Origin: a virus
Virus record (IMG/VR): IMGVR_UViG_3300009184_000043
Coordinates: 4,745 to 68,744 of that record
Reading direction: 5' to 3' (one strand)
DNA length: 64,000 nucleotides
Part shown: positions 1,804-53,403 of the stretch, one piece after another
How positions within the stretch are numbered: position 1 is the first letter of the stretch
Layout: each line of letters starts with the position of its first letter
Notes under the pieces: generated by a model
The model's input: only the letters and a program-made list of their open reading frames with translations
Told to the model about the DNA's origin: nothing
Databases searched by the model: none
Made by a program: the position numbers and the translations under genes

Positions 1804-2121
1804 ATGGATTCTATCAGCGATGAAAAATTAAACGAAGCAATAAATAGCAAAAAAACAACCCTTGTATGGTTTTCAGCTGAATGGTGCGGACCTTGCAAGA
1901 TGCTAAAGCCAACTATTGAGAAAATTTCTACTGAACTTGCAGAGAGTTATAATTTTATAAAAGCCGAGGTTGGTACAGCAGAAGAAACCACAAAAAGATT
2001 TAATATTAGAAACATACCAACTTGTGTTTTAACTAGAGACGGCGAAGAAGTTGCAAGATTTTCAGGAGTAAAAAACGAGGAGCAAATAAAAAATTTCTTA
2101 CAGGAGCACAATCCTATTTGA
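1804..2121 (+). CDS. trxA: Thioredoxin
   Basis: WCGPC active site, cis-Pro motif NIPT, 105 aa. Confidence 0.95.
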   Translation: MDSISDEKLNEAINSKKTTLVWFSAEWCGPCKMLKPTIEKISTELAESYNFIKAEVGTAEETTKRFNIRNIPTCVLTRDGEEVARFSGVKNEEQIKNFLQEHNPI

Positions 2122-2168
2122 AACTTTTAGTATATTTGCAGGTATTATTAAAAAAAAGTTCTTTCACA
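2120..2168 (+). promoter_or_regulatory. Stacked promoter boxes and boxA-like site ahead of the Y-like RNAs
   Basis: GAAAC 2120, TATATTTG 2131 (Bacteroidota -7 box), GTTCTTTCACA 2158-2168. Confidence 0.5.
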
Positions 2169-2406
2169 TACTTATTTTCTTGAAGCGGTTTAAATGGTTA
2201 CTCCATACAATAAACGTCGAAAGGATTAGTTCTCCGGTTCTAATCTACACCAGGTCTCAGTACTGCTATAGATGAGGCGCTTTTATTTTCGTAAGGATTT
2301 AAAAGAAGAATTACAGTAGCTCGGTTTTATTCTCCTGACTAGAAATGCGGGAATGATTACCTCCCATAAGGAGGAACCACCTTTTAAAGATTTCTCAAGA
2401 AAGTAT
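2168..2406 (+). ncRNA. Y RNA-like element 1 (long form with multi-hairpin insert)
   Basis: TTTCTTGA/TCAAGAAA closing stem; GA-AGCGG; TTTAAATGGT/ACCTTTTAAA stem; TACTCC; upstream of TROVE gene. Confidence 0.6.
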
Positions 2407-2417
2407 TATTAATAAAA

Positions 2418-2505
2418 TAAACTCCGAAGCGGGAACAAGGATTACATCATTTACATTCTTATCAATTTAAACGAAAAACATCCTTGTTTATTTATTCTCG
2501 GTTTT
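2418..2505 (+). ncRNA. Y RNA-like element 2
   Basis: CCGA/TCGG; AGCGG; GAACAAGGAT/ATCCTTGTTT 10-bp stem; TACATC. Confidence 0.65.
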
Positions 2506-2513
2506 TAAATTAT

Positions 2514-2588
2514 TATTCTGAAGCGGGATAAAGAGTTACTTCACTACAATTACACGAAACAACGCTCTTTGTCAAAATACTCAGGATA
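2514..2588 (+). ncRNA. Y RNA-like element 3
   Basis: TATTCTGA/TCAGGATA; AGCGG; GATAAAGAGT/GCTCTTTGTC 10-bp stem; TACTTC. Confidence 0.65.
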
Positions 2589-2595
2589 TAACTTT

Positions 2596-2628
2596 AAGGG
2601 GTTTGAACTACGGTTTAAACCCTTTTTT
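2596..2628 (+). terminator. Intrinsic terminator between the Y-like RNAs and the TROVE gene
   Basis: AAGGGGTTTGAAC-TACG-GTTTAAACCCTTT followed by T run. Confidence 0.75.
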
Positions 2629-2656
2629 ATTGCGTAAAAATTAAAAAATAAAATAT

Positions 2657-4303
2657 ATGTCAAGACTAAGCGAATTTGCTGACAAAAAAACAGCAATGCA
2701 AATTTTACAAAACTCCACTTACGGAGCACTAGGAGTGGAGAACTTCATGGGAGGAACATCTTATGTTTTATCGCCTCTAAACACTTTAAAGATTGTTGCT
2801 GCGTCTTCGATCTTTGGTGAACCACAATACTATAGAGACGGATTAGGTGCTCCTAAGAATCTTATCACTATCCTTGACTATTCTATATTAGCTCCTATGT
2901 TCAAATCCGAATCCGGAGCTTTAAAAGACGATATGAGCGTTGTAGATATATTTGAGGAAGCCATACAAGCATCATTGGACTTCGACTTTAAATCAACCTT
3001 GGATTTAGCATTAGAACTTCGTAACGAGTACTATATGCGTTTAAATCCTGCTGTAATATTCATGAAAGCGAGTATGCACGAAGGACGTCAGAAGTTTAAC
3101 GAAGAAAATCCGGGATATATGAAAATGATAGGCAAGTCAATTGCTCTACGTCCAGATGATTTAACAAATCAGTTTGAATACTACATGTATAAGAACGGAA
3201 GCAAAAAAGGACTTTCCTCACTAGTAAAAAGAACTTGGGCAGAAAGACTTTCTGAATTCTCTAGATACCAATTGAATAAGTACAAAGGTAAAAGATTAAT
3301 AGATCTTGTTCGTATTTCCCACGGTAAAAGCGAGGACATTAACGAACTAATGTCAACTGGTACATTAAAAATAACAGAACGGGAAAAAACTTGGGAGAAT
3401 TTAAGATCTGAAAAGAAATCTTGGGAAGAGATCACAAATACTATCTTAATCCCTCACATGGCTCTTTTGAGAAACCTTAGAGGTATTTTTACTGAAGTTG
3501 AAGATCCTACAATTACTGCTAGAATTTTAACACAATTAAAATCGGGTGTTGTTAAGGGAAAACAATTTCCTTTTAGATATTGGTCTGCTTATAGAGCAGT
3601 AACAGATTCTCAGATCCACCACAAACAACTTGTTTTGGATACTTTAGAGGAATGTTTAGATATCTCTGTTGAGAATATGCCTAAGTTAAAAGGTAAAACA
3701 GTTTGTCTTTCAGATAACTCCGGATCTGCATGGGGAGCTTTCAATAGCGAATATGGAACAGTTACCGTGGCAGAAATTGCTAACTTGTCTTCTTTAATTA
3801 CCTCACTACAATCCGATTCTGGAGAGGTTGGAGTATTTGGAGATAACCTTTCATTAAAAGGTGTATCTAAAAGAAACGGTCTTCTTACTCAATTGGATGA
3901 AACATCTAAAAGAGGTAAAGCTCAAGGAGGTGGTACAGAAAATGGTATTTGGGTATTCTTTGATGAAGCTATTAAAAATAAAGTCCATTACGACAACATC
4001 TTTATCTATTCAGATATGCAGGCAGGGCACGGAGGTCTTTTTGGACACAGAGAAACAGTAGGATCAAGTAAATTTATCCACCCGAAAGGAGGGGGAACAC
4101 ACGTAGACGTACTTGCTATGGCTCAGGAATACAGGGAAAAGGTTAATCCTAAAGTTAATTTATTTACTGTACAGGTGGGTGGCTACAATAACACCGTGCT
4201 TCCTGAAGCTCTTTATAGAGGAGGAATATTAGCAGGATGGACAGGTAAAGAACCAATATTTGCTAAAGCAATTATAGACATTTGGGATTCAGTAGAAGCC
4301 TAA
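2657..4303 (+). CDS. Ro60/TROVE-domain RNA-binding protein (Rsr-like)
   Basis: 548 aa; MALLRNL, FPFRYWSAY, vWA MIDAS DNSGS, IYSDMQ, GW near C-terminus. Confidence 0.92.
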   Translation: MSRLSEFADKKTAMQILQNSTYGALGVENFMGGTSYVLSPLNTLKIVAASSIFGEPQYYRDGLGAPKNLITILDYSILAPMFKSESGALKDDMSVVDIFEEAIQASLDFDFKSTLDLALELRNEYYMRLNPAVIFMKASMHEGRQKFNEENPGYMKMIGKSIALRPDDLTNQFEYYMYKNGSKKGLSSLVKRTWAERLSEFSRYQLNKYKGKRLIDLVRISHGKSEDINELMSTGTLKITEREKTWENLRSEKKSWEEITNTILIPHMALLRNLRGIFTEVEDPTITARILTQLKSGVVKGKQFPFRYWSAYRAVTDSQIHHKQLVLDTLEECLDISVENMPKLKGKTVCLSDNSGSAWGAFNSEYGTVTVAEIANLSSLITSLQSDSGEVGVFGDNLSLKGVSKRNGLLTQLDETSKRGKAQGGGTENGIWVFFDEAIKNKVHYDNIFIYSDMQAGHGGLFGHRETVGSSKFIHPKGGGTHVDVLAMAQEYREKVNPKVNLFTVQVGGYNNTVLPEALYRGGILAGWTGKEPIFAKAIIDIWDSVEA

Positions 4304-5531: not shown

Positions 5532-5591
5532 ATGAAAACAATATTTAACATATCACCTTCAATATTAAGACCGTCGATAAGACGATCCTAA
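5532..5591 (+). CDS. Attenuator leader peptide 1 (MKTIFNISPSILRPSIRRS)
   Basis: Last 13 codons are only Ile(ATA)/Ser(TCN)/Pro/Leu(TTA)/Arg, matching tRNA array 1. Confidence 0.8.
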   Translation: MKTIFNISPSILRPSIRRS

Positions 5592-5657
5592 AGGTCCTGT
5601 GTTAATAAAAAATAATCATTAACTAAACCGGGACCTTCAAAAAGTCCCGGTTTTTTT
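5591..5657 (+). terminator. Attenuator 1: antiterminator plus intrinsic terminator
   Basis: Terminator AAACCGGGAC/GTCCCGGTTT + T7 (5625-5657); AAGGTCCTG (5591-5599) pairs with CGGGACCTT (5629-5637). Confidence 0.85.
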
Positions 5658-5658
5658 G

Positions 5659-5670
5659 TGTTCTTTGACA
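5659..5670 (+). promoter_or_regulatory. boxA-like antitermination site
   Basis: TGTTCTTTGACA, repeated after all three attenuators. Confidence 0.6.
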
Positions 5671-5687
5671 TGTTGGATTATCAAATT

Positions 5688-5777
5688 GGAGAGTTGGCAG
5701 AGCCCGGTTTAATGCACCAGTCTTGAAAACTGACGTAGTGAAAGCTACCGGGGGTTCGAATCCCTCACTCTCCTCCA
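5688..5777 (+). tRNA. tRNA-Ser(TGA)
   Basis: Cloverleaf, loop CT-TGA-AA, long variable arm, encoded CCA. Confidence 0.93.
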
Positions 5778-5780
5778 ATT

Positions 5781-5852
5781 GCCTCCGTAGTTCAACGGAT
5801 AGAACAGCGGTTTTCTAAACCGTCAATGTGGGTTCGATTCCCGCCGGGGGTA
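5781..5852 (+). tRNA. tRNA-Arg(TCT)
   Basis: Cloverleaf, loop TT-TCT-AA. Confidence 0.9.
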
Positions 5853-5865
5853 CTAAAAAATAAAA

Positions 5866-6024
5866 AGCCCTCTGCCTAGCGCTGGGTATGGATCGAAGAT
5901 AGAATATGCCTCTACAACGTAGACAGTTAGAATATTTCGGTATTCTTTAATGATATGCACACTTATTCTCTAAATCGTGGGTTAGCACAGTTTGTATGTT
6001 CTGGGGATATTTAAAGACATACAA
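5866..6024 (+). ncRNA. Putative structured RNA of unknown class inside tRNA array 1
   Basis: Nested hairpins, e.g. TCTAC/GTAGA, AGAATAT-TTCG-GTATTCT, TTGTATGTT/GACATACAA; no credible ORF. Confidence 0.35.
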
Positions 6025-6027
6025 TTT

Positions 6028-6100
6028 CGGGATGTAGATCAGTTGGTAGATCGCCTGGTTTGGGACCAGGAGGCCCCAGGTTCGAGTCCTGGTATCCCGA
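6028..6100 (+). tRNA. tRNA-Pro(TGG)
   Basis: Cloverleaf, loop TT-TGG-GA. Confidence 0.93.
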
Positions 6101-6108
6101 CAGCCCCA

Positions 6109-6182
6109 AGAGGCTTAGCTCAATTGGTTAGAGCACATGCCTTATACGCATGCGGTCATGGGTTCGACTCCCATAGTCTCTA
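6109..6182 (+). tRNA. tRNA-Ile(TAT)
   Basis: Cloverleaf, CATGC-CT-TAT-AC-GCATG. Confidence 0.88.
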
Positions 6183-6186
6183 CTTA

Positions 6187-6260
6187 GGTCCTTTAGCTCA
6201 GTAGGTTAGAGCAACTGACTCATAATCAGTAGGTCCACGGTTCGAGCCCGTGAGGGACCA
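6187..6260 (+). tRNA. tRNA-Ile2(CAT, lysidine type)
   Basis: CAT anticodon with Ile2-like body (GGTCCTT acceptor, ACTGA stem); initiator and elongator Met tRNAs are present elsewhere. Confidence 0.78.
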
Positions 6261-6276
6261 CAAAAATTACACATTC

Positions 6277-6360
6277 GCCCGGGTGGTGGAATTGGTAGTC
6301 ACGCAGCACTTAAAATGCTGTAACCATTTGGTTGTACGGGTTCGATTCCCGTCCCGGGTA
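6277..6360 (+). tRNA. tRNA-Leu(TAA)
   Basis: Cloverleaf, loop CT-TAA-AA, long variable arm. Confidence 0.93.
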
Positions 6361-6365
6361 CATAT

Positions 6366-6470
6366 ATAAGAGTGGCGGAAGTGTGATCATTGCAATGATC
6401 CGATAGATAGACGCTAGGGTAATCTACCCGAGAATGAAAGTTCATATTGGTGCAAGTCCAATCTCTTGTA
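6366..6470 (+). ncRNA. tRNA-like RNA with D-loop hairpin insertion and degenerate anticodon arm
   Basis: ATAAGAG/CTCTTGT acceptor; GCG/CGC D stem; insert GATCATTGCAATGATC; T arm ATTGG-TGCAAGT-CCAAT. Confidence 0.55.
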
Positions 6471-6492
6471 CTTTTTTGTTGATATATACTAT

Positions 6493-10016: not shown

Positions 10017-10106
10017 ATGAAACACTTTTTAAATATCGCAATAGATTTTCAACTTCATAAAGAAGATGACCTTCTAGAGGATACAATTAAGTGTCAGAGG
10101 AAATAA
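10017..10106 (+). CDS. Attenuator leader peptide 2 (MKHFLNIAIDFQLHKEDDLLEDTIKCQRK)
   Basis: Run GAA GAT GAC CTT CTA GAG GAT matches the Glu/Asp/Leu(TAG) tRNAs of array 2. Confidence 0.8.
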   Translation: MKHFLNIAIDFQLHKEDDLLEDTIKCQRK

Positions 10107-10156
10107 ATTTATATAACGATATAATTTAAACCTCTGATAACCTCAGAGGTTTTTTT
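10092..10156 (+). terminator. Attenuator 2: antiterminator plus intrinsic terminator
   Basis: Terminator AAACCTCTGA-TAACC-TCAGAGGTTT + T run (10128-10156); TGTCAGAGG (10092-10100) pairs with CCTCTGATA (10131-10139). Confidence 0.85.
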
Positions 10157-10164
10157 GTTTTATA

Positions 10165-10176
10165 TGTTCTTTGAAA
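10165..10176 (+). promoter_or_regulatory. boxA-like antitermination site
   Basis: TGTTCTTTGAAA. Confidence 0.6.
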
Positions 10177-10180
10177 TTAC

Positions 10181-10252
10181 GCTGCCATCGTCTAACGGTT
10201 AGGACCTATGGTTTTCATCCATAAAATCGGAGTTCGATTCTCCGTGGCAGTA
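10181..10252 (+). tRNA. tRNA-Glu(TTC)
   Basis: Cloverleaf, loop TT-TTC-AT. Confidence 0.92.
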
Positions 10253-10263
10253 CAAAAAATTAA

Positions 10264-10338
10264 GGTCCCGTAGTTAAACGGCTATAATGCTGCCCTGTCA
10301 CGGCAGAGTTCGGAGTTCGATTCTCCGCGGGACCGCCA
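10264..10338 (+). tRNA. tRNA-Asp(GTC)
   Basis: Cloverleaf, loop CT-GTC-AC, G73, CCA. Confidence 0.93.
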
Positions 10339-10343
10339 TATAT

Positions 10344-10416
<73 letters not shown>

Positions 10417-10420
10417 CTAA

Positions 10421-10499
10421 GCCCAGGTGGTGAAATGGTATACACGCTAGATTTAGGATCTAGTGCGAAAGCGTGAGGGTTCGAGTCCCTCCCTGGGTA
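10421..10499 (+). tRNA. tRNA-Leu(TAG)
   Basis: Cloverleaf, loop TT-TAG-GA, variable arm. Confidence 0.93.
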
Positions 10500-10501
10500 C
10501 T

Positions 10502-11071
10502 ATGAAAATTATATTTTTAGATCATGATGGAGTAATTTGTCTTTCCCAACAATTTGGAGGACGTTACAAAAAGCAGGCTAAAGCTAGAAAAAAGCTTTCG
10601 CAGGATGTAATGAGTTTTCATGTAGGAGCTAGATTTGATAACTTCGACAAGAAAGCAATAAAGGTTTTAAATTTAATTCTAGAAGAGACTGGAGCTGAAA
10701 TAGTTGTTTCTTCAGATTGGAAGGTCTGGGCAACAATAGAGGAAATGGGAGAATACTATGAACAACAAGGAATAATTAAAAAACCTATAGATTTCACACC
10801 AAGAGAATATCCTTACACAGAAAACCAAGAATGGCATCCAGACTGGGATTTAGAAGCATCAAGAACTTTAGAAATCCAAGAATGGTTAAAGGCCCATTCC
10901 GGAGTTACTCATTGGGTAGCAATAGATGATTTAGATATGAGCTTTAAAGAAGTATCTAATAATAGAAGCGGTACTGGATGGGGATTAACAAACTTTGTAC
11001 ACACTCCTAGCATTATGCAAGGGATTAAGCAATCAGGAATAAAAGAAAAAGTTTTAAAATTTTTGAAATAA
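10502..11071 (+). CDS. HAD-superfamily phosphatase, Swiss-army-knife RNA-repair type
   Basis: IIFLDHDGV, IVVSSDW, WVAIDD motifs; start moved to ATG 10502 because the GTG start lies inside tRNA-Leu. Confidence 0.8.
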   Translation: MKIIFLDHDGVICLSQQFGGRYKKQAKARKKLSQDVMSFHVGARFDNFDKKAIKVLNLILEETGAEIVVSSDWKVWATIEEMGEYYEQQGIIKKPIDFTPREYPYTENQEWHPDWDLEASRTLEIQEWLKAHSGVTHWVAIDDLDMSFKEVSNNRSGTGWGLTNFVHTPSIMQGIKQSGIKEKVLKFLK

Positions 11072-11152
11072 TTTGAAAAACATTTTTTTATTTAAAAAAG
11101 ATATTGTACTTTTACGAAACTATTCTGGAAACAGGATATATAATAAAGAAAA

Positions 11153-11260
11153 ATGAAAAACTGTAGTAAACATAACATCAATCGCATGATCAGTCAGATT
11201 AATGGCTGCTATCAAACGGTGGCGTTTTGGGCAAAGGGGAAAGAACCCGATCGAAGCTAA
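11153..11260 (+). CDS. Attenuator leader peptide 3 (MKNCSKHNINRMISQINGCYQTVAFWAKGKEPDRS)
   Basis: First 30 codons use exactly the 16 amino acids of tRNA array 3 and no others. Confidence 0.82.
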   Translation: MKNCSKHNINRMISQINGCYQTVAFWAKGKEPDRS

Positions 11261-11323
11261 TACAGAAAATCATATTTAGATATTTCGGAAAAGGCTTTGA
11301 TTCACATCAAAGCCTTTTTTTTT
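11249..11323 (+). terminator. Attenuator 3: antiterminator plus intrinsic terminator
   Basis: Terminator AAAAGGCTTTGAT-TCAC-ATCAAAGCCTTTT + T run (11289-11323); GATCGAAGCT (11249-11258) pairs with GGCTTTGATT (11293-11302) using G:U pairs. Confidence 0.82.
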
Positions 11324-11334
11324 GTTCTTTGACA
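11323..11334 (+). promoter_or_regulatory. boxA-like antitermination site
   Basis: TGTTCTTTGACA. Confidence 0.6.
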
Positions 11335-11348
11335 TACTGGAAAAAAAT

Positions 11349-11421
11349 GGTACCGTAGCTCAGTTGGTAGAGCACTAGACTGAAAATCTAGGTGTCGCCG
11401 GTTCGATTCCGGCCGGTACCA
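11349..11421 (+). tRNA. tRNA-Phe(GAA)
   Basis: Cloverleaf, loop CT-GAA-AA. Confidence 0.94.
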
Positions 11422-11491
11422 CAATACTAAACAAGAAATTGTCTCACTAAACTAATCATGTTTAGTATTACAAAAACAAGTTTAGTAAAAT

Positions 11492-11564
11492 GATCTCGTA
11501 GCTCAGCTGGTAGAGCACCGCACTTTTAATGCGGGAGTCGAGGGTTCGAGCCCCTCCGGGATCA
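11492..11564 (+). tRNA. tRNA-Lys(TTT)
   Basis: Cloverleaf, loop CT-TTT-AA. Confidence 0.94.
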
Positions 11565-11570
11565 CTATAC

Positions 11571-11643
11571 ACATCGGTAGCTCAGTTGGTAGAGCACCAG
11601 TCTCCAAAACTGGGTGTCGTAGGTTCGAGTCCTACCCTTTGTG
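11571..11643 (+). tRNA. tRNA-Trp(CCA)
   Basis: Cloverleaf, loop CT-CCA-AA; two acceptor mismatches (ACATCGG/CCTTTGT). Confidence 0.82.
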
Positions 11644-11651
11644 CAAAATAA

Positions 11652-11724
11652 GGCTCTATAGTTCAATGGATTAGAATAGATCACTACGGATGATCTGATC
11701 CTGGTTCGAATCCAGGTGGAGCCT
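11652..11724 (+). tRNA. tRNA-Arg(ACG)
   Basis: Cloverleaf, loop CT-ACG-GA. Confidence 0.92.
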
Positions 11725-11735
11725 CAAATAAATAA

Positions 11736-11807
11736 GGTCGTGTGGTCGAGTGGTTTAGGCACTAGTCTGCAAAACTAGTTATACTGGTTCGATTCCAGTC
11801 ACGACCT
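11736..11807 (+). tRNA. tRNA-Cys(GCA)
   Basis: Cloverleaf, loop CT-GCA-AA, U73. Confidence 0.93.
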
Positions 11808-11824
11808 CAAAAAAATTTAAAAAT

Positions 11825-11962
11825 ATGACGATAGAAAGCAGAATAGTAGCAAGAGGAAGTTTCCCCTCTAGTAAAGAAAACTTAAGAAGAGAAACAATAA
11901 AATTTAAACACACCGAAAGATTGATAAAAAGAATCAGAAGGTTAATTAAAAAAGGAAAGTAA
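11825..11962 (+). CDS. Small basic ORF (45 aa) inside tRNA array 3
   Basis: MTIESRIVARGSFPSSKENLRRETIKFKHTERLIKRIRRLIKKGK; fills the spacer; stop overlaps tRNA-Ser 5' end. Confidence 0.45.
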   Translation: MTIESRIVARGSFPSSKENLRRETIKFKHTERLIKRIRRLIKKGK

Positions 11963-12039
11963 TCTCAGATGGTGACGGGGCTCGCCTGCTAAGCGAAGCG
12001 TACTTTAATTGGTATTTGGTTCGATTCCAATTCTTTCCG
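11954..12039 (+). tRNA. tRNA-Ser(GCT)
   Basis: Loop CT-GCT-AA, long variable arm, G73; atypical D arm. Confidence 0.78.
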
Positions 12040-12045
12040 CAACAT

Positions 12046-12122
12046 TGACATATAGCTCAGTTGGTTAGAGCGTTGATCTGATACGTCAAAGGCCGAAGGT
12101 TCGAATCCTTCTATGTCAACCA
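12046..12122 (+). tRNA. tRNA-Ile(GAT)
   Basis: Cloverleaf, loop CT-GAT-AC, CCA. Confidence 0.92.
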
Positions 12123-12127
12123 CATTT

Positions 12128-12200
12128 AGTCTCTTAGCTCAGTTGGTAGAGCGTTTGGTTTACATCCAAAATGTCGGGGGTTCGAATCCCTCAGGGACTA
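12128..12200 (+). tRNA. tRNA-Val(TAC)
   Basis: Cloverleaf, loop TT-TAC-AT. Confidence 0.92.
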
Positions 12201-12202
12201 CA

Positions 12203-12291
12203 AGATTAGAAGCGGTGAAAGGGGTTACTTCGATCAAAACCTTGTAATTTTTTGACCAAAAAAACCACCCCGTTCAAATATTCTCTAATCT
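12203..12291 (+). ncRNA. Y RNA-like element 4, between tRNA-Val and tRNA-Asn
   Basis: AGATTAGA/TCTAATCT; AGCGG; TGAAAGGGGT/ACCCCGTTCA; TACTTC; same architecture as elements 1-3. Confidence 0.65.
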
Positions 12292-12296
12292 AAACT

Positions 12297-12369
12297 GGGG
12301 ATGTAGCTCAGCGGTAGTAGCAACTGACTGTTAATCAGTAGGTCATAGGTTCGAATCCTATCATCCCCG
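12297..12369 (+). tRNA. tRNA-Asn(GTT)
   Basis: Cloverleaf, loop CT-GTT-AA, G73. Confidence 0.92.
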
Positions 12370-12374
12370 CACTT

Positions 12375-12459
12375 CGGAGTGTTGAGCAATTGGTTGCTCA
12401 GCTGACTGTAAATCAGCCGCCTTACGGCATTGGGGGTTCGAATCCCTCCGCTCCGACCA
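12375..12459 (+). tRNA. tRNA-Tyr(GTA)
   Basis: Loop CT-GTA-AA, long variable arm, CCA; C1:G72 pair. Confidence 0.9.
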
Positions 12460-12462
12460 AAT

Positions 12463-12537
12463 GCAGGTATCGTATAACGGTCATTACTTCTGACTTCCAA
12501 TCAGAAGATCTCGGTTCGATTCCGGGTACCTGCTCCA
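12463..12537 (+). tRNA. tRNA-Gly(TCC)
   Basis: Cloverleaf, loop CT-TCC-AA, U73, CCA. Confidence 0.93.
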
Positions 12538-12611
12538 GTGGGATTAGCTCAGCTGGCTAGAGCACTTGCCTTGCACGCAAGGGGTCAACGGTTCGAATCC
12601 GTTATCCTCCA
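12538..12611 (+). tRNA. tRNA-Ala(TGC)
   Basis: Loop CT-TGC-AC; G3:U70 identity pair. Confidence 0.92.
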
Positions 12612-12620
12612 CTTTTATAT

Positions 12621-12693
12621 GGCGAGTTAGCTCAGCTGGTAGAGCGTCGGAATCATACCCCGAAGGTCGGCAGTTCGAACCTGCCACTCGCTA
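12621..12693 (+). tRNA. Elongator tRNA-Met(CAT)
   Basis: GGCGAGT acceptor, loop AT-CAT-AC. Confidence 0.82.
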
Positions 12694-12695
12694 CT

Positions 12696-12769
12696 GTGAC
12701 GGTAGCTCAGTTGGTTAGAGCGTCTGATTGTGGTTCAGAAGGTCGGGAGTTCGATTCTCCTCTGTCACC
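12696..12769 (+). tRNA. tRNA-His(GTG)
   Basis: Loop TT-GTG-GT, C73; encoded -1 base is T. Confidence 0.9.
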
Positions 12770-12773
12770 TATT

Positions 12774-12846
12774 GCCTTTGTAGCTCAGCTGGTAGAGCGC
12801 TTCATTTGTAATGAAGATGTCGCAGGTTCGATCCCTGTCAAAGGCT
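12774..12846 (+). tRNA. tRNA-Thr(TGT)
   Basis: Cloverleaf, loop TT-TGT-AA. Confidence 0.93.
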
Positions 12847-12852
12847 CTATAA

Positions 12853-12925
12853 TGTCCTGTGGTGTAATTGGCAACACGTCTGATTTTGATTCAGAAGAGT
12901 CCAGGTTCGAGCCCTGGCGGGACAT
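12853..12925 (+). tRNA. tRNA-Gln(TTG)
   Basis: Cloverleaf, loop TT-TTG-AT, U1:A72. Confidence 0.92.
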
Positions 12926-12948
12926 CTAAAAAATAAGATATATAGGTC

Positions 12949-48455: not shown

Positions 48456-48703
48456 ATACACAAAAAATAATTGAGTCTGTTACTGGCAATCCTGAAGAGG
48501 GGCTTGGTAACAGACTCAATTTTATTTTAGACGATTTGAAAGATTGTCTAGCAAAAATAGAAGAATTGGAAACTTCTAGTAAAGAACATGGTAAGATAGG
48601 TATAGACACAATTAGAAATTCTAGGAAAAATTTGGAACAATTGAAAGTAAATTTAGAAAATCAGCTACAAAAGCTCCAAAATAATCTCCCTGAAGAACAA
48701 TGA
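48449..48703 (+). CDS. ATG-less -1 frame extension (84 codons) of the 776-aa gene
   Basis: Open from the A9 run to TGA 48701-48703, which overlaps the next ATG (ATGA). Confidence 0.55.
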   Translation, partial: KLNTQKIIESVTGNPEEGLGNRLNFILDDLKDCLAKIEELETSSKEHGKIGIDTIRNSRKNLEQLKVNLENQLQKLQNNLPEEQ

Positions 48704-49056
48704 TCTACGTAAAAAACAAAGAATTAAAAAGAGCACTTTTAGAAAGCAAAGAAAAAGGCCAGCTCACAAGAGAAACCGTTGAAATGTTTACCCTTATAGT
48801 AAACGGTATGTCAAAAACACATTCATATAGAGATAGCGAAGACAGAGAAGACTGTATGTCGTCAGGGCTAGAGGATCTAGTTAAATACTGGAATCGTTAC
48901 GATCCTGCAAAATCCGATAACCCTTTTGCATTCATATCTCAAATCGCACACAACGGTATGAAAAAAGGATGGAAAAAAATCCACCCACCAAAATCAATTA
49001 AAACTATACCTTTTTCTAGAATAGTAAGAGAAGAGAACTCTGTCTATAACGTTTAA
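48700..49056 (+). CDS. Late transcription sigma factor (gp55-like, short)
   Basis: YVKNKEL, Y...DREDC, YDPAKSDNPFAFISQI. Confidence 0.75.
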   Translation: MIYVKNKELKRALLESKEKGQLTRETVEMFTLIVNGMSKTHSYRDSEDREDCMSSGLEDLVKYWNRYDPAKSDNPFAFISQIAHNGMKKGWKKIHPPKSIKTIPFSRIVREENSVYNV

Positions 49057-49547: not shown

Positions 49548-50137
49548 AGCCTTTTAAAGATCAATTTGAAGATTATAAATTAAATGTTTCGGGATTATCA
49601 TCGCTAGCGGAGGAATCTTTTATGTTCTGGTTTAAAAATTTTGTAAACCAAAAGAGTCAATTCAATCCTCAAGGTTTTTTACCCGGTAAATTTTATTCTT
49701 TTGAGTACGATGACGTATTGGAGAAGAATAAGAAATTCATAAATAAAAGACCAGTTATATTTTTTACTGGATTTATGAATTATGAGAATAAGCAGGCTTT
49801 TAGTGGTGTAGATATAATATTAATGCCTCCTATTTTTAGATTAGCATTTTTTTCAAGGATACAATCTGTTTATCAGGATTTAATAGAATCTAATATGAAA
49901 AAAATAGAAAGCGGAGAATCGAGGGGACAGATCCCGCTTAAAACCGATTACGAAACTTTTGATGTTATTATGAAGGGGATACCTTATAAAAATACATATA
50001 GAGTATGGGATTTAAAAAAAGTTCGCGATGTAATGGAAATTCCCTACGAAGATTGGACTAGAATAATATATCTACATACTCGGTCAATTCAAGGGACCCC
50101 GATAGAAGAGATATATACTAAAAACTCAAAGATCTAA
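49544..50137 (+). CDS. DNA end protector (gp2-like)
   Basis: PGKFYSFEY...P.I; position after the gp4-like gene. Confidence 0.55.
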   Translation: MKPFKDQFEDYKLNVSGLSSLAEESFMFWFKNFVNQKSQFNPQGFLPGKFYSFEYDDVLEKNKKFINKRPVIFFTGFMNYENKQAFSGVDIILMPPIFRLAFFSRIQSVYQDLIESNMKKIESGESRGQIPLKTDYETFDVIMKGIPYKNTYRVWDLKKVRDVMEIPYEDWTRIIYLHTRSIQGTPIEEIYTKNSKI

Positions 50138-51756
50138 TGGCTGGATTTACAGACGGAAATAAAACATTTTTTAGCTCTATCGTTGATAGTATTAAAAAGG
50201 TTAGTAGCTTCGGAATGGCTTATGAGGATCTTGTTATAAAGAATTCTCAGGCTGTAGGTGTTTCTGAAGCTCAATTCTTACAAAAGGGTGGAATTAAAGA
50301 CGAGGCTTTCCTTTTCGGATTAAGAAGAGCTGATACGTCTACCAAGCAATACATAGCTTATTTCGATAAGGATTACAAAAACAAAAGACATTATTTACAA
50401 GGATTTGGACAGAACCCAGAGATTGAATTTATCTTAGATACAATATGTGACGAATCTATTGTATACGACGAAAAAAACTTCTGGGCTTATTTCTCTTTCA
50501 TGCAACACGAAGATGTTGATGAGGAAACATACAAGAAAGTACAGAAAAGATATAGGGAGATATACAATCTATTCGGATTTAACCAAGATATTTTAGCTTG
50601 GCATCTTTATAGAAAATTTTTAGTAGAAGGTATTTTATCATTTGAAATAGTTTTTGATAAGAAAGGTAAGAATATCGTAGGATTTAAAGAATTAGATCCT
50701 GCATCTCTCGTACCAACAGTAGAACAACAACCAGATGGAAGCTACATTGATATATGGATACAATATCCGGACAATCCAGCATTAACTAGAAAGCTTTACG
50801 ATTCTCAGATAATTTATATAAGTTATGCAAAAGGAGGCGGTACATCATCTAGAGTAAGCTACGTTGAAAGAATGATTAGATCTTTTAACCTTCTTAGAAT
50901 TATGGAACACACAAGAATCATATGGAACGTGATGAATTCATCATATCGTATGGCAATGACCGTTCCTATTGGTACTAAATCGCCGCAAAAAGCTAAACAA
51001 ACACTTGGAGAACTTATGTCTATCTACAAAGAGGATATAAGATTAAATACGGACAGTGGAGAATTAACAGTAGACGGAAGACCAAAAATACAATTCTTCA
51101 AAAACTATTTAATGCCTTCGTCTCCTAACGGAACTCCTGATATACAACCTTTAGCAGGAGCTGGTGATGCAACAGCATTTAGCGACACGACAGCATTAAA
51201 ATATTTTGCTAATAAGCTCCGAATGGATTCCAAAATTCCCGTAACACGATTCGGAAGAGAAGAATCTGGATCAGAGGGTACAATTACATTTGCTGCAGAA
51301 GGGGTAGATCAAGAGGAAATCAGGTTTGGTAAATTTATTAACAGATTAAGATCTATTTACCAGGATATACTTATGAAGCCTCTATGGGTTCAATTCTGTT
51401 TAGATTTCCCTGAATTAAAAAAAGATTACATTCTTAAATCCGAATTTGGACTAGACTATGTTAAGGAGAACATGTTTAGGGAATCCAAGGATATGGAAGT
51501 AATGACTGCAAGAAAAGATCAGGTTATTAAAATATCAGGACTTAAAAATTCTGAAGGGAAAAACTACTTCAGTATGGATTTCCTTATAGATAGATTCTTA
51601 GGTATGACTAATCAGGATTTATTAGATAACAAAAAAGCTAAAGAAAAAGCTGCAGAAGCAAAAAAAGAAGCAGAGGGAGCTACGGGAGCAGAAGGAGCTA
51701 CAGGAGCAGAAGGAGCTACTGAAGAAGAAGGCGGAGGCGAAGAATTCAAATTATAA
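50137..51756 (+). CDS. Portal protein (gp20-like) 1
   Basis: PEIE..LD.I.DE, ELDP, SY.E, NLLRIME, KIP..R, EEIRFGKFINRLR. Confidence 0.9.
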   Translation: MAGFTDGNKTFFSSIVDSIKKVSSFGMAYEDLVIKNSQAVGVSEAQFLQKGGIKDEAFLFGLRRADTSTKQYIAYFDKDYKNKRHYLQGFGQNPEIEFILDTICDESIVYDEKNFWAYFSFMQHEDVDEETYKKVQKRYREIYNLFGFNQDILAWHLYRKFLVEGILSFEIVFDKKGKNIVGFKELDPASLVPTVEQQPDGSYIDIWIQYPDNPALTRKLYDSQIIYISYAKGGGTSSRVSYVERMIRSFNLLRIMEHTRIIWNVMNSSYRMAMTVPIGTKSPQKAKQTLGELMSIYKEDIRLNTDSGELTVDGRPKIQFFKNYLMPSSPNGTPDIQPLAGAGDATAFSDTTALKYFANKLRMDSKIPVTRFGREESGSEGTITFAAEGVDQEEIRFGKFINRLRSIYQDILMKPLWVQFCLDFPELKKDYILKSEFGLDYVKENMFRESKDMEVMTARKDQVIKISGLKNSEGKNYFSMDFLIDRFLGMTNQDLLDNKKAKEKAAEAKKEAEGATGAEGATGAEGATEEEGGGEEFKL

Positions 51757-51759
51757 AAA

Positions 51760-53403
51760 ATGGCTGGATTTTTAGATAACATAGGTAAATTTAACCCAAA
51801 CGTATCAAGAATACTAAAAACAATTAGTGGACTTGGATCATTTGGTATGGATTACAAAGACATGGTAATTCAAGACTCTATGGCTATTGGTATATCCGAA
51901 GCTGATCTTAGAGAAAGATTTGGATTCAGTGCTGATGATGAGGACTTTATCTATAGTATAGCTGCACAGGATACTACAAATAGAAAATACATTGCATACT
52001 TTGATAAAGATTATCCTTTCAAAAGGGACTTCTTAAGAACATTTGCATTAAATGCTGAAGTAGAATACATTTTAGACACTATTTGTGATGAGGGCATAGT
52101 ATACGATGAAAAGAACTTCTTTTGTCACAATGCGATGCTTAGTATGGATTTACAGGATGATGTAATAAAAGCTCTTAGAAAGAATTTTAGAAAATTATAC
52201 GTACTACATAATTTTGCAAACGGTTTAACTGGATGGCAATACTTTAGACAATTATTAGTTGAAGGATTCTTAGCATTTGAAATAATATATTCTAGCGACG
52301 GTAAAGAAATCGTAGGTTTTAAAGAATTAGATGCTATAAGTCTTACTCCAGCAGTAGAGAAAAAAGCTGACGGGACTAGAGAAACTATATGGTGGCAATA
52401 TTACGGAGAAACTACTAGACAAAGAAGATTGCTAGATGCACAGGTTATTTATATCTCTTATGCTAAAGCAAATACTGTTTCTAGAACTTCCTACGTTGAA
52501 CGTCTTATTAGATCTTATAACTTATTGAAGATCATGGAGCATTCCAGAATTATTTGGAACGTTATGAATGCTCAGTACAGAATTAAGATGACAGTTCCTA
52601 TTGGTAGTAAGTCTCCACAGAAGGCAAAAGAAACTTTAGGAGAGCTTATGTCTGTTTATAAAGAGGACATTAAACTAGATACATCATCAGGTGAGCTTGC
52701 TATTAACGGTAGACCAGATTTACAATTCTATAAGAATTACCTATTTCCCCAACAAGGAGGAGATTCGGTTAAAGTTGAAACTATAAATGCACAAGGTCCA
52801 AACTTAAACGTAATGGATTCGGTTCTTTATTTCTACAATAAGCTAAGACAAGATTCTAAAATCCCATACAATAGGTTCTCATCTCGATTTGGTGTAGGTG
52901 CTAACAACACATTCCATACTGCTGCAGATGGTGCAGAAAGAGACGAGGTTAGATTCTCTAAGTTCATTACACGATTAAGATCAATATTCCAAGAAATAAT
53001 GGTTAAGCCATTATGGATTCAAATGTGTCTTGAATTTCCTCACCTAAAAAATGATACTGAATTTAGAAGCCAAATAGGTATTAAGTTTGAAAGCGATAAC
53101 ACATTCGGTGAATCTAGAGAAATAGAACAATTAATTAAGAAGATAGATTTTGTAACTTCACTAGGGGAGATTAAAGAAACAGTTAACGACGAAGAGGTAC
53201 AATATTTTGATCAGAATTTCCTTATTGAAAGATGGCTAGGACTTCCTAATGATGATATCCAAATGAATAGAACATATCTAGAAAAGGACAAGGAAGAGGG
53301 CCAAGGAGCAGCTACCGGAGCAGCACCAGCAGAAGCACCAGCAGAAGCAGCACCAGCAGAAGCAGCACCAGCAGAAGGTGAAGCACCCGCAGAAGGGGCA
53401 TAA
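51760..53403 (+). CDS. Portal protein (gp20-like) 2
   Basis: Full-length paralog with RDEVRFSKFITRLR. Confidence 0.9.
   Translation: MAGFLDNIGKFNPNVSRILKTISGLGSFGMDYKDMVIQDSMAIGISEADLRERFGFSADDEDFIYSIAAQDTTNRKYIAYFDKDYPFKRDFLRTFALNAEVEYILDTICDEGIVYDEKNFFCHNAMLSMDLQDDVIKALRKNFRKLYVLHNFANGLTGWQYFRQLLVEGFLAFEIIYSSDGKEIVGFKELDAISLTPAVEKKADGTRETIWWQYYGETTRQRRLLDAQVIYISYAKANTVSRTSYVERLIRSYNLLKIMEHSRIIWNVMNAQYRIKMTVPIGSKSPQKAKETLGELMSVYKEDIKLDTSSGELAINGRPDLQFYKNYLFPQQGGDSVKVETINAQGPNLNVMDSVLYFYNKLRQDSKIPYNRFSSRFGVGANNTFHTAADGAERDEVRFSKFITRLRSIFQEIMVKPLWIQMCLEFPHLKNDTEFRSQIGIKFESDNTFGESREIEQLIKKIDFVTSLGEIKETVNDEEVQYFDQNFLIERWLGLPNDDIQMNRTYLEKDKEEGQGAATGAAPAEAPAEAAPAEAAPAEGEAPAEGA

What the first reader, a model, noticed from the sequence alone, without database searches (positions are those of the whole stretch)
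11153..11334. Attenuator 3: one leader sampling all 16 amino acids of a 16-tRNA array
Seen: codons 1-30 (MKNCSKHNINRMISQINGCYQTVAFWAKGK) contain F, K, W, R, C, S, I, V, N, Y, G, A, M, H, T and Q, exactly the array 3 set. There is no Leu in the whole leader, and E, P and D appear only at codons 31-33 beside the antiterminator. Ser is always AGY, Arg always CGN and Ile always ATY, although AGA and ATA are common in this genome. GATCGAAGCT pairs with GGCTTTGATT. Inference: a multi-input OR gate in which loss of any one tRNA stalls the ribosome upstream of the antiterminator.
Basis: partly seen in the sequence, partly recalled or inferred. Interest (0 to 1): 0.9.

Follow-up and report, generated by a model that had tools for sequence, protein, structure and literature searches.

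The report
Codon-matched attenuator gating phage tRNAs
A 35-codon "test" gene in front of this lake phage's 16-tRNA block is spelled with exactly the amino acids those tRNAs carry and is wired to a switchable transcription stop, so the phage probably makes these tRNAs only when ribosomes read their codons slowly, a control I found no paper describing for tRNA genes.

Summary
The ORF at 11153-11260 covers exactly the 16 amino acids of array 3 in codons 1-30. It has no Leu, and E/P/D occur only at codons 31-33. It uses the codon families read by this array (Ser AGY, Arg CGN, Ile ATY). Leader 1 uses the opposite families, matching array 1 (Fisher P=1.2e-4). Simulation gave coverage plus exclusion in 0 of 2,000,000 random leaders. 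The ORF's last codons pair with the 5' arm of an intrinsic terminator (fold). All 80 pair cells are kept in 8 relatives.

The layout recurs in related IMG/VR phage contigs. In 24 leader families, 143 of 145 non-Met anticodons have a cognate codon in their own leader. Permuting leaders among arrays gives a mean of 40.7 misses. Antiterminator complementarity is significant in 21 of 24 families. Cognate codons avoid the last six codons and favour wobble-read NNG.

The box after the terminator resembles Bacteroidota rrn-leader boxA.

Best reading: a ribosome-mediated attenuator that senses the supply of the tRNAs it controls. No expression data exist. Ten literature searches found no published account. 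The nearest in print is Anabaena's repressor-controlled tRNA array. This scan has already noted the same device on other phage genomes.

The parts
11107..11114 (+). Promoter-like -7 box TACTTTTA. Relatives carry TACTTTTG or TACATTTG. It fits the Bacteroidota TAnnTTTG type (consensus recalled).
   Evidence: An exact TAnnTTTG lies upstream of 11 of 19 leader-family representatives. The same box type precedes the 16S rRNA genes of the Bacteroidota genomes examined.
11137..11144 (+). TATATAAT box 9 nt before the ATG. It may be a phage late-type promoter or an AT-rich initiation region.
   Evidence: 23 of 47 + strand TATAWAWW boxes lie within 30 nt upstream of an ORF or leader start. A small Sigma70_r2 protein is encoded at 48700-49056.
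11153..11260 (+). Leader ORF 3, 35 codons plus TAA. The sensing codons are 2-30.
11224..11230 (+). Possible region 1 (GUUUUGG, codons 24-26) that can pair with the antiterminator's 5' strand in the full-length fold. The helix is weak, 7 bp with G-U pairs.
   Evidence: MFE structure only; not tested in relatives.
11249..11258 (+). Antiterminator 5' strand GATCGAAGCT. It covers codons 33-35 and the first base of the stop codon.
   Evidence: 80 of 80 pair cells are kept in 8 distinct relatives. Slid controls give 60% or less.
11293..11302 (+). Antiterminator 3' strand GGCTTTGATT. It is also the 5' arm of the terminator.
11289..11323 (+). Intrinsic terminator: 13-bp stem, loop TCAC, run of 9 T (11315-11323); hairpin -17.0 kcal/mol.
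   Evidence: 98.1% of pair cells are kept, with one compensatory UA to CG pair in 3 relatives.
11324..11335 (+). GTTCTTTGACAT box (boxA-like) between the terminator and the first tRNA.
   Evidence: It is present after the terminator in 26 of 30 unique attenuators of loci not selected by the box. The best matches in 4 Bacteroidota rrn leaders have 1-2 mismatches.
11349..12926 (+). Array 3: Phe, Lys, Trp, Arg(ACG), Cys, Ser(GCT, sub-threshold, 11954-12040), Ile(GAT), Val, Asn, Tyr, Gly, Ala, Met, His, Thr, Gln.
5532..5671 (+). Sister attenuator 1: leader 5532-5591, antiterminator strand 5591-5604, hairpin 5625-5653, box 5660-5671. It precedes array 1 (5688-6361).
   Evidence: 11 of 18 codons are read by array 1 (background 0.165, P = 2.5e-5).
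10017..10177 (+). Sister attenuator 2: leader 10017-10106, antiterminator strand 10091-10101, hairpin 10128-10152, box 10166-10177. It precedes array 2 (10181-10500).
   Evidence: Seven consecutive Glu/Asp/Leu(CTN) codons occur. Whole-leader enrichment is not significant (7 of 28, P = 0.15).

Best explanation
This is a ribosome-mediated (leader-peptide) transcription attenuator placed in front of tRNA genes.

Proposed sequence of events:
1. Transcription starts upstream of 11153 and the 35-codon leader is translated as it is made.
2. If every codon is decoded promptly, the ribosome reaches the stop codon and covers GATCGAAGCT (11249-11258). The terminator hairpin (11289-11318 plus the T-run) then forms, and RNA polymerase stops before the tRNAs.
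3. If the ribosome lags at any of codons 2 to about 28 because the matching charged tRNA is scarce, GATCGAAGCT stays free and pairs with the terminator's 5' arm. The terminator cannot form and polymerase reads on.
4. Polymerase then passes the boxA-like GTTCTTTGACAT, which would load host Nus factors and protect the long untranslated transcript, and enters the 16-tRNA array.

The leader holds at least one codon for each tRNA of the array and none for the tRNAs of arrays 1 and 2. The device therefore reports shortage of its own products and closes a negative feedback loop.

Shown here: the ORF, the codon match, the alternative pairings, and their conservation and recurrence in related phages.

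Inferred: translation of the leader, the direction of the switch, the OR-gate behaviour, the Nus role of the box, and the promoter.
For: 1. Codon match in the window. Leader 3 against array 3 matches 30 of 34 codons (P = 4.5e-6), against arrays 1 and 2 only 1 and 3 of 34. Full coverage plus exclusion of L/E/D/P occurred in 0 of 2,000,000 simulations.

2. Internal control. For Ser, Arg and Ile, leader 1 uses the array-1 codon family 10:1 and leader 3 uses the array-3 family 8:0 (Fisher P = 1.2e-4).

3. Structure. The antiterminator appears in the fold of the truncated transcript and the terminator in the full one. 80 of 80 antiterminator and 98.1% of terminator pair cells are kept in 8 relatives. 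One base change serves both helices.

4. Reading frame. Both indels inside the ORF are exactly 3 nt, while indels after the stop codon are 1-2 nt.

5. Composition is conserved rather than sequence. Going from the window to L122 the changes are M12T, T22G, V23M and G29V, so the set stays complete.

6. Recurrence. 81 of 87 terminator-bearing array starts have a leader ORF. Among unique regions the figure is 68 of 74, against 29.1 expected from shuffles. In 24 leader families, 143 of 145 non-Met anticodons are represented in their own leader, against 40.7 +/- 6.1 misses when leaders are permuted. Own pairings match 317 of 772 codons against 203 +/- 17.

7. Antiterminator complementarity between the ORF's 3' end and the terminator's 5' arm has z < -1.64 in 21 of 24 families, mean z -3.29.

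8. Position. Cognate-codon density is 0.44-0.54 at 7 or more codons before the stop and 0.24-0.27 in the last six codons.

9. Tuning. Codons read by U34 tRNAs are the wobble-read NNG in 50 of 106 cases against 24.2 expected (P = 3e-8). Non-cognate NNR codons in the same leaders show no such bias, 25 of 92 against 20.2.

10. The same layout occurs in GenBank LR756500.1, where a leader rich in H, E, V and W precedes His, Glu, Val and Trp tRNAs.
Against: - There is no expression, ribosome or termination data, so every functional step is inferred.
- Most tRNAs are probed by a single codon. Classical attenuators use runs of codons, so sensitivity to partial depletion is uncertain.
- Stalls at codons 29-30 would probably mask the antiterminator rather than free it.
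- The box after the terminator could be, or could sit beside, an independent promoter. Part of array expression might then bypass the switch.
- The match is not universal. L065 keeps the 16-amino-acid leader in front of only 6 tRNAs, with 12 of 34 codons matched. In L118 the array is split by an insertion.
- Two anticodons lack a codon in their leader: Arg-ACG in L028 and Lys-CTT in L122.
- Leader 2 as a whole is not significantly enriched.
- The 16th tRNA of this window, Ser-GCT, is sub-threshold and may be decaying.
- The leader families share an N-terminal pattern, so they are not fully independent samples.
Confidence: 0.78

Rival explanations
1. General translation-health sensor. The attenuator works as described but reports overall ribosome speed or availability, not the 16 individual tRNAs. 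The wide amino-acid set would then be a by-product of needing an 'average' ORF.
For: With 16 of 20 amino acids sampled, mostly once each, leader 3 is close to a generic ORF. Single codons give weak specificity. The only tRNA array with published regulation, in Anabaena, answers to general translational stress (passages of PMC8421152).
Against: L, E, D and P are excluded from codons 1-30 (P = 3e-4). The isoacceptor-specific choice has joint P = 4.8e-5. The reciprocal pattern in leader 1 gives Fisher P = 1.2e-4. Small arrays have narrow leaders, for example a Q/P/H leader before Pro, His and Gln tRNAs in L044. Permuted leader-array pairs fit far worse.
Confidence: 0.08
2. Insulating terminator plus separate tRNA promoter. 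The hairpin merely ends upstream transcription, the GTTCTTTGACAT box is part of the array's own promoter, and the small ORF has no regulatory link to the tRNAs.
For: The box lies 11-16 nt before tRNA starts in many loci and also occurs without any leader, for example after a gene's terminator in L123 and between tRNAs in L122. It contains a TTTG core like the Bacteroidota promoter boxes (consensus recalled).
Against: This does not explain the codon match, the antiterminator complementarity in 21 of 24 families, or the depletion of cognate codons in the last six codons. No second promoter box was found at the right spacing (my reading). In 64 kb the box occurs exactly only before the three arrays, and in a 1-mismatch form before the non-coding RNA cluster at 2158 (a further 1-mismatch match at 30983 lies inside a protein-coding ORF); it is not found before protein genes. 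It resembles rrn-leader elements downstream of the promoters of 4 Bacteroidota genomes.
Confidence: 0.07
3. Functional micropeptide. The ORF encodes a small protein with its own activity, and the resemblance to the array is coincidental or reflects shared composition.
For: The ORF is conserved in relatives and its first 8 codons follow a family-wide pattern (M-K/R-x-x-x-K/N-H/N-I/M).
Against: Between relatives, amino acids swap positions while the set is kept. Different leader families are unrelated in sequence yet each fits its own array. The C-terminal codons are constrained as RNA pairing partners.
Confidence: 0.03
4. Direct RNA-tRNA sensing (T-box-like). The leader RNA binds tRNAs by codon-anticodon pairing without translation.
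For: T-box leaders also gate an intrinsic terminator by an antiterminator and read tRNA identity through a codon (recalled knowledge).
Against: No T-box or other cis-regulatory family was found in the window at gathering score. None appeared at E up to 1 in 11000-12320. All leaders have an ATG, an open frame and a stop placed at the antiterminator, and indels inside the frame are multiples of 3. A T-box reads one codon, not sixteen.
Confidence: 0.02

Closest known systems
Multivalent leader-peptide attenuators of enterobacterial amino-acid operons (thr leader for Thr and Ile; ilvGMEDA leader for Ile, Leu and Val; also trp, his, leu, pheA). Recalled knowledge, not re-read here.
   Same: A short translated leader is enriched in the sensed codons. 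The antiterminator strand is masked by a ribosome that reaches the stop codon. An intrinsic terminator follows. More than one amino acid is sensed by one leader.
   Different: The regulated genes here are tRNAs, the very molecules being sensed, not biosynthetic enzymes. Up to 16 inputs are sensed, mostly by single codons rather than runs. Isoacceptor codon families, not only amino acids, are matched. The element sits in a phage, is followed by a boxA-like element, and is present in several copies per genome, each with its own codon set.
pheST-type leader-peptide attenuation of an aminoacyl-tRNA synthetase operon (recalled)
   Same: Ribosome-mediated attenuation controls a component of the decoding machinery rather than a biosynthetic pathway.
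   Different: That system has one amino acid as input and a protein gene as output. Here there are many inputs and the outputs are tRNAs.
T-box riboswitch (recalled; Rfam searched)
   Same: It senses tRNA status and switches between terminator and antiterminator in a 5' leader.
   Different: A T-box needs no translation and binds one uncharged tRNA directly through a specifier codon and the T-box sequence. No such family matched here, and these leaders are ORFs.
Anabaena sp. PCC 7120 trn L-array (PMC8421152, passages read; PMC10272220, abstract read)
   Same: A horizontally mobile block of about two dozen tRNA genes is kept silent and induced when translation is impaired. An RNA-repair gene (rtcB there, a HAD_SAK_2 gene here) is co-regulated or co-transcribed.
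   Different: Control there is at the promoter, by the repressor TrcR binding direct repeats. The words attenuat-, leader and terminator occur 0 times in the main text of PMC8421152. Here control would be co-transcriptional and codon-specific.
rrn boxA / Nus-factor antitermination (lead from note e1-6185324; function recalled)
   Same: GTTCTTTGACAT lies in the transcript just before stable-RNA genes. It matches elements in the 16S leaders of 4 Bacteroidota genomes with 1-2 mismatches.
   Different: It sits before phage tRNA arrays and a Y-RNA-like cluster, not before rRNA. Binding of NusB/NusE was not tested.

Membership tests
Leader-peptide (ribosome-mediated) transcription attenuator | Short ORF with start and stop codons in the 5' leader of the regulated genes, on the same strand | tested here: met
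   The ORF is 11153-11260 and the first tRNA starts at 11349. A leader ORF is present in 68 of 74 unique terminator-bearing regions of relatives, against 29.1 expected.
Leader-peptide (ribosome-mediated) transcription attenuator | Regulatory codons that match the sensed amino acid or tRNA are over-represented in the leader | tested here: met
   30 of 34 codons match (P = 4.5e-6), with full coverage of 16 of 16 amino acids. 143 of 145 anticodons are covered in 24 families, and no permutation of 100,000 did as well.
Leader-peptide (ribosome-mediated) transcription attenuator | Intrinsic terminator between the leader and the regulated genes | tested here: met
   13-bp stem plus 9 T, -17.0 kcal/mol. 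98.1% of pairs are kept, with one compensatory pair.
Leader-peptide (ribosome-mediated) transcription attenuator | Antiterminator that excludes the terminator, with its 5' strand within reach of a ribosome at the end of the ORF | tested here: met
   11249-11258 pairs with 11293-11302 and overlaps the stop codon. 80 of 80 cells are paired. Complementarity is significant in 21 of 24 families.
Leader-peptide (ribosome-mediated) transcription attenuator | Readthrough rises when the cognate charged tRNA is limiting and needs translation of the leader | not testable with these tools
   No RNA holder was listed for this stretch. Experiments are needed.
T-box riboswitch | Conserved T-box sequence, specifier loop and stem I architecture | tested here: not met
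   Rfam found no T-box hit in the window at gathering score or at E up to 1 in 11000-12320.
rrn-type boxA (Nus-factor loading site) | Conserved about 12-nt box in the transcribed leader of stable-RNA operons, similar to the host's rrn leader box | tested here: inconclusive
   The best matches in the 242-300 nt before the 16S gene of 4 Bacteroidota genomes have 1-2 mismatches, with 10-56 of 2000 shuffles as good. The host is unknown. A 14-mer scan of bacterial genomes was dominated by chance hits, with 1 of 122 before a 16S gene.
rrn-type boxA (Nus-factor loading site) | Binds NusB-NusE and renders RNA polymerase termination-resistant | not testable with these tools
   This is a biochemical property.
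TrcR-type repression of tRNA L-arrays (Anabaena) | [quoted passage not shown] | not tested
   I did not search the window's promoter regions for such repeats or for an RHH gene. The family is listed only as the nearest published regulation of a tRNA array.

The most novel reading that the evidence does not exclude
The three attenuators form a phage-encoded tRNA-damage response. Each leader acts as a codon-by-codon roster of its array and is tuned to wobble-read codons. Loss of any single host or phage tRNA species, for example through host anticodon nucleases or host shut-off, switches on the matching replacement tRNAs. Attenuator 2 would also switch on the RNA-repair HAD gene fused to array 2, and attenuator 3 the Y-RNA-like element inside array 3, which links the response to the phage's Ro60 module. 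Leaders would then be readable manifests of which tRNAs a phage needs, and they would co-evolve with array content.
Probability: 0.4. Interest if true: 0.92.

Novelty: new variant of a known kind. Interest (0 to 1): 0.85.

Why it matters
Leader-peptide attenuation is a textbook mechanism, but it is known for genes that make amino acids or charge tRNAs. Here the same logic appears to control tRNA genes themselves, with up to 16 inputs on one switch and separate switches for separate isoacceptor sets.

If this is true, four things follow:
- Phage tRNAs are supplied on demand rather than constitutively. That bears directly on the open question of why phages carry tRNAs: codon compensation, or replacement of tRNAs lost to host defence or shut-off.
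- It gives a sequence-only way to read which tRNAs of an array are functional and which are decaying, and to tell elongator Met from other CAT tRNAs.
- It shows that single wobble-read codons can serve as sensors.
- It offers compact, programmable, multi-input tRNA sensors for synthetic biology.

The device is widespread in uncultured freshwater giant phages and is present in a public GenBank record (LR756500.1), so it can be tested now.

Tried and rejected
RNA evidence. The look-up of sequencing runs listed no RNA holder. I laid one run labelled RNA-Seq (probably DNA) and two DNA runs as contigs. Contigs cannot show starts, ends or levels, so nothing was learned about expression.

Host boxA through a collection scan. 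The 14-mer scan of genome contigs returned 120 loci with 122 occurrences. One lay before a 16S gene, none before a tRNA, 12 at contig edges and 109 elsewhere. At this length the hits are mostly chance, so the scan was uninformative. I examined the rrn leaders of named Bacteroidota genomes instead. 16S genes were found in only 4 of the 10 genomes tried.

Cultured relatives. Tenacibaculum phage PTm1 and Flavobacterium phage MaF61 have no tRNA hit. Tenacibaculum phage pT24 has no copy of the box. The HAD protein has only two weak GenBank phage hits, and the array region only tRNA-level hits. I found no isolate carrying the device.

Box as a sigma-70-type or Bacteroidota promoter. I found no second element at a workable spacing (my reading), and a -10 element would fall inside the tRNA. 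The idea is kept only as a minor rival.

Reverse logic, in which a ribosome at the stop codon melts the terminator. The stop-to-hairpin gap is 18-48 nt, too far for direct occlusion.

First-pass terminator finder (perfect stems only). It missed many sites and was replaced. In one search my wobble rule wrongly let Gln-TTG read His codons. This was corrected from then on.

Rows dropped. L024, L194 and L175 were left out because they look like C-termini of real proteins or long ORFs, and two of them lack antiterminator complementarity. They were kept.

Literature. Ten searches found no paper on attenuation of tRNA genes. Subscription journals and supplements were not searchable, so absence from print is not proven.
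Full report
WHAT IS THERE

The window is the larger part of a 68,744-bp virus record. G+C is about 34%. It encodes a terminase, a tail sheath and two portal-like proteins, a TROVE/Ro60 protein and a small Sigma70_r2 protein, and a HAD_SAK_2 RNA-repair-type protein.

ARAGORN and Rfam each find 25 tRNAs, all on the + strand, in three arrays:
- Array 1, 5688-6361: Ser-TGA, Arg-TCT, Pro, Ile-TAT, Met, Leu-TAA.
- Array 2, 10181-10500: Glu, Asp, Met, Leu-TAG.
- Array 3, 11349-12926: 15 tRNAs called at default settings.

The gap at 11809-12045 holds a 16th gene, tRNA-Ser(GCT) at 11954-12040. ARAGORN calls it only at a relaxed threshold. Rfam scores it below threshold (tRNA-Sec model, 36.6 bits against 47). 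Relatives L122 and L123 have a normally called Ser(GCT) at that position.

The ORF at 11153-11260 encodes 35 residues.
- Codons 1-30 contain exactly the 16 amino acids of array 3.
- Leu is absent, and E, P and D occur only at codons 31-33.
- Ser is AGY three times, Arg is CGN twice and Ile is ATY three times.
- In the phage's own long ORFs, AGA is 25.8 per 1000 against 3.7 per 1000 for all CGN codons, and ATA is as common as ATT.
- The joint chance of these synonymous choices is 4.8e-5.

30 of 34 codons are read by array-3 anticodons (background 0.507, P = 4.5e-6). Only 1 and 3 of 34 are read by arrays 1 and 2. Among 2,000,000 random leaders drawn from the phage's codon usage, full coverage in codons 2-30 occurred at 3.0e-4 and absence of L/E/D/P at 3.0e-4. 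The two never occurred together.

In the full transcript the terminator forms instead: a 13-bp stem, nine T, -17.0 kcal/mol.

THE NEIGHBOURS GIVE AN INTERNAL CONTROL

Arrays 1 and 2 have the same layout: promoter-like box, TATATAA box, short ORF, antiterminator strand at the ORF's end, hairpin, GTTCTTTGA(C/A)AT, then tRNAs.
- Leader 1 has 11 of 18 codons read by array 1, against a background of 0.165 (P = 2.5e-5), and none read by array 2.
- Leader 2 contains seven consecutive Glu/Asp/Leu(CTN) codons, but as a whole it is not significantly enriched (7 of 28, P = 0.15).
- Ser, Arg and Ile occur in both leader 1 and leader 3. Leader 1 uses TCN, AGA and ATA (10 of 11 codons) and leader 3 uses AGY, CGN and ATY (8 of 8). 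Each matches its own array's isoacceptors (Fisher P = 1.2e-4).

RELATIVES

The HAD protein next to the leader has 298 relatives in IMG/VR, and 80 loci were fetched.

Eight distinct sequences carry the leader-3 family. Across them:
- The antiterminator keeps 80 of 80 pair cells, against 60% or less when the partner is slid.
- The terminator keeps 98.1% of pair cells, with one compensatory UA to CG pair.
- Both indels inside the ORF are 3 nt, while indels after the stop codon are 1-2 nt.
- The window and L122/L123 differ by M12T, T22G, V23M and G29V. The amino acids move but the set stays complete. This is what selection on codon content, not on a peptide, would produce.

THE RULE IS GENERAL IN THIS PHAGE GROUP

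Of 87 array starts with a terminator, 81 have an ORF of at least 12 codons ending near it. Among unique regions the figure is 68 of 74, against 29.1 expected from shuffles. The 56 distinct peptides fall into 28 families.

In the 24 families whose arrays have at least two non-Met anticodons:
- 143 of 145 anticodons have a cognate codon in their own leader.
- Permuting leaders among arrays gives 40.7 +/- 6.1 misses, with a minimum of 17 in 100,000 permutations.
- Own pairings match 317 of 772 codons, against 203 +/- 17 for permuted pairings.
- The two misses are Arg-ACG in L028 and Lys-CTT in L122.

Where a second attenuator interrupts a long run of tRNAs (L030), each leader covers only its own segment. 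Small arrays have narrow leaders. For example, a leader rich in Q, P and H precedes Pro, His and Gln tRNAs in L044.

Three further tests fit the mechanism:
- The ORF's 3' end is complementary to the terminator's 5' arm beyond shuffled controls in 21 of 24 families, mean z -3.29. Two of the three exceptions look like ends of real proteins.
- Cognate-codon density is 0.44-0.54 from seven codons before the stop upwards, and falls to 0.24-0.27 in the last six codons, where a stalled ribosome would mask the antiterminator (17 complete families, three doubtful ones dropped).
- Codons served by U34 tRNAs are the wobble-read NNG in 50 of 106 cases against 24.2 expected (P = 3e-8). Non-cognate NNR codons of the same leaders are not biased: 25 of 92 against 20.2.

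COUNTER-EXAMPLES

- L065 keeps the 16-amino-acid leader before only six tRNAs.
- In L118 the array is split by an insertion.
- The families share an N-terminal pattern, so they are not fully independent.

THE BOX AT 11324-11335

GTTCTTTGA(C/A)AT occurs exactly three times in 64 kb, each time just after an attenuator. It occurs once with one mismatch before the non-coding RNA cluster upstream of the Ro60 gene.

In the fetched loci, 65 of 174 copies lie within 40 nt before a tRNA. In loci not selected by the box, it follows the terminator in 26 of 30 unique attenuators, with 2 near variants.

I tested this on named Bacteroidota genomes:
- 16S genes were found in 4 of the 10 genomes tried.
- In each of the 4, the 242-300 nt before the 16S gene holds a match with 1-2 mismatches. 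GTTCTTTGACAA in Larkinella is the best.
- Between 10 and 56 of 2000 shuffles did as well.
- These leaders also start from TAnnTTTG-type boxes like those upstream of the phage leaders, where 11 of 19 families have an exact match.

I read the box as a boxA-like element that would protect the untranslated array from premature termination once the attenuator is passed, and the host as a Bacteroidota. Both are inferences.

MECHANISM AND RIVALS

The best-supported model is trp/his-type attenuation, in which the sensed molecules are the products of the regulated genes. Prompt decoding brings the ribosome to the stop codon. The antiterminator strand is then masked, the terminator forms, and transcription stops. 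A lag at any sensing codon leaves the strand free, the antiterminator forms, and transcription reads through.

I rate this at 0.78. The rivals are:
- A non-specific translation-speed sensor (0.08).
- An insulating terminator with a separate tRNA promoter (0.07).
- A functional micropeptide (0.03).
- T-box-like direct sensing (0.02; no Rfam hit).

No expression data could be obtained.

WHAT IS KNOWN

Ten full-text searches found no report of attenuation of tRNA genes.

The nearest published case is the Anabaena trn L-array. It is induced under translational stress together with rtcB, but through the repressor TrcR acting on promoter repeats. I read passages of PMC8421152, in which the words attenuat-, leader and terminator occur 0 times. 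I read the abstract and outline of PMC10272220. What I say about multivalent thr and ilv leaders, pheST and T-boxes comes from memory.

The closest GenBank phages by terminase share 38% identity or less. They are uncultured giant phages, Sphingomonas phage PAU and Tenacibaculum jumbo phages. One of them, LR756500.1, shows the same layout: a TAnnTTTG box, a 24-codon leader rich in H, E, V and W, a hairpin and the box, followed by His, Glu, Val and Trp tRNAs.

Earlier notes of this scan report the same device on other phage genomes, including near-identical copies of leader 3. I treated those notes as leads only.

VERDICT

The feature is real, is far beyond chance, and is conserved. It is a new variant of a known mechanism, applied to a new class of genes. 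The functional steps remain to be shown.

Noticed in passing
window 10421-11071: The HAD_SAK_2 (RNA-repair 'Swiss Army Knife' HAD domain) gene starts at 10502, two bases after tRNA-Leu(TAG) ends at 10500. It is therefore probably co-transcribed with array 2 and under attenuator 2. No hairpin separates its stop (11071) from leader 3. This parallels rtcB being co-regulated with the Anabaena tRNA array.
   Followed up: partly
window 2121-4303: A TROVE/Ro60-like gene (2657-4303; Pfam TROVE, phrog_850) is preceded by a 530-nt non-coding stretch with repeated GAAGCGG-containing units and a one-mismatch copy of the box at 2158. I did not test them.
   Followed up: no
window 12202-12296: A non-tRNA spacer inside array 3, between tRNA-Val and tRNA-Asn, carries the same GAAGCGG motif. 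Rfam YrlA gives only weak hits nearby (18-27 bits against a gathering score of 69).
   Followed up: no
window 11825-11962: A 45-codon, very basic ORF fills the gap between tRNA-Cys and the sub-threshold tRNA-Ser(GCT), and its end overlaps that tRNA's start. The Ser(GCT) gene has a weak D arm, a 4-bp T stem and a T-T mismatch in the acceptor stem, so it may be decaying while the leader keeps three AGY codons.
   Followed up: partly
leaders in the window (5532, 10017, 11153) and in L001-L196: Most leader families begin M-K/R-x-x-x-(K/N)-(H/N)-(I/M). At DNA level this is an AAA-CAT-AT-like stretch at codons 6-8. It holds whatever the array behind. The cause could be common descent or a role in initiation or early elongation. 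It remains unexplained.
   Followed up: partly
window, + strand, e.g. 4829, 14260, 16188, 32884, 36342, 36922, 58742: TATAWAWW boxes lie within 30 nt upstream of ORF or leader starts in 23 of 47 + strand cases, including the tail sheath, terminase and tail-fibre genes. A 118-aa Sigma70_r2 protein is encoded at 48700-49056. This looks like a T4-style late promoter class, so the leaders may be transcribed late as well as from host-type promoters.
   Followed up: partly
window 50137-53403: Two adjacent full-length portal-like genes (539 and 547 aa) both hit phrog_213.
   Followed up: no
window 6361-6470: About 100 nt after array 1 there is an imperfect palindrome and a terminator-like hairpin (6449-6472). 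This may be the array's terminator or a small RNA.
   Followed up: no
L118:6849-9367: In this relative, array 3 is split in two by about 1.8 kb of inserted DNA. The second half begins with an extra Ser(TGA) and has no attenuator of its own. The leader still lists the amino acids of both halves.
   Followed up: partly
L330 (LR756500.1, around 118.8 kb) and L328 (around 87.3 kb): A 462-kb uncultured phage in GenBank has the same promoter box, leader, hairpin, box and tRNA layout. One leader is rich in H, E, V and W and precedes His, Glu, Val and Trp tRNAs. Another is rich in Asn and precedes tRNA-Asn. The record is unannotated.
   Followed up: partly
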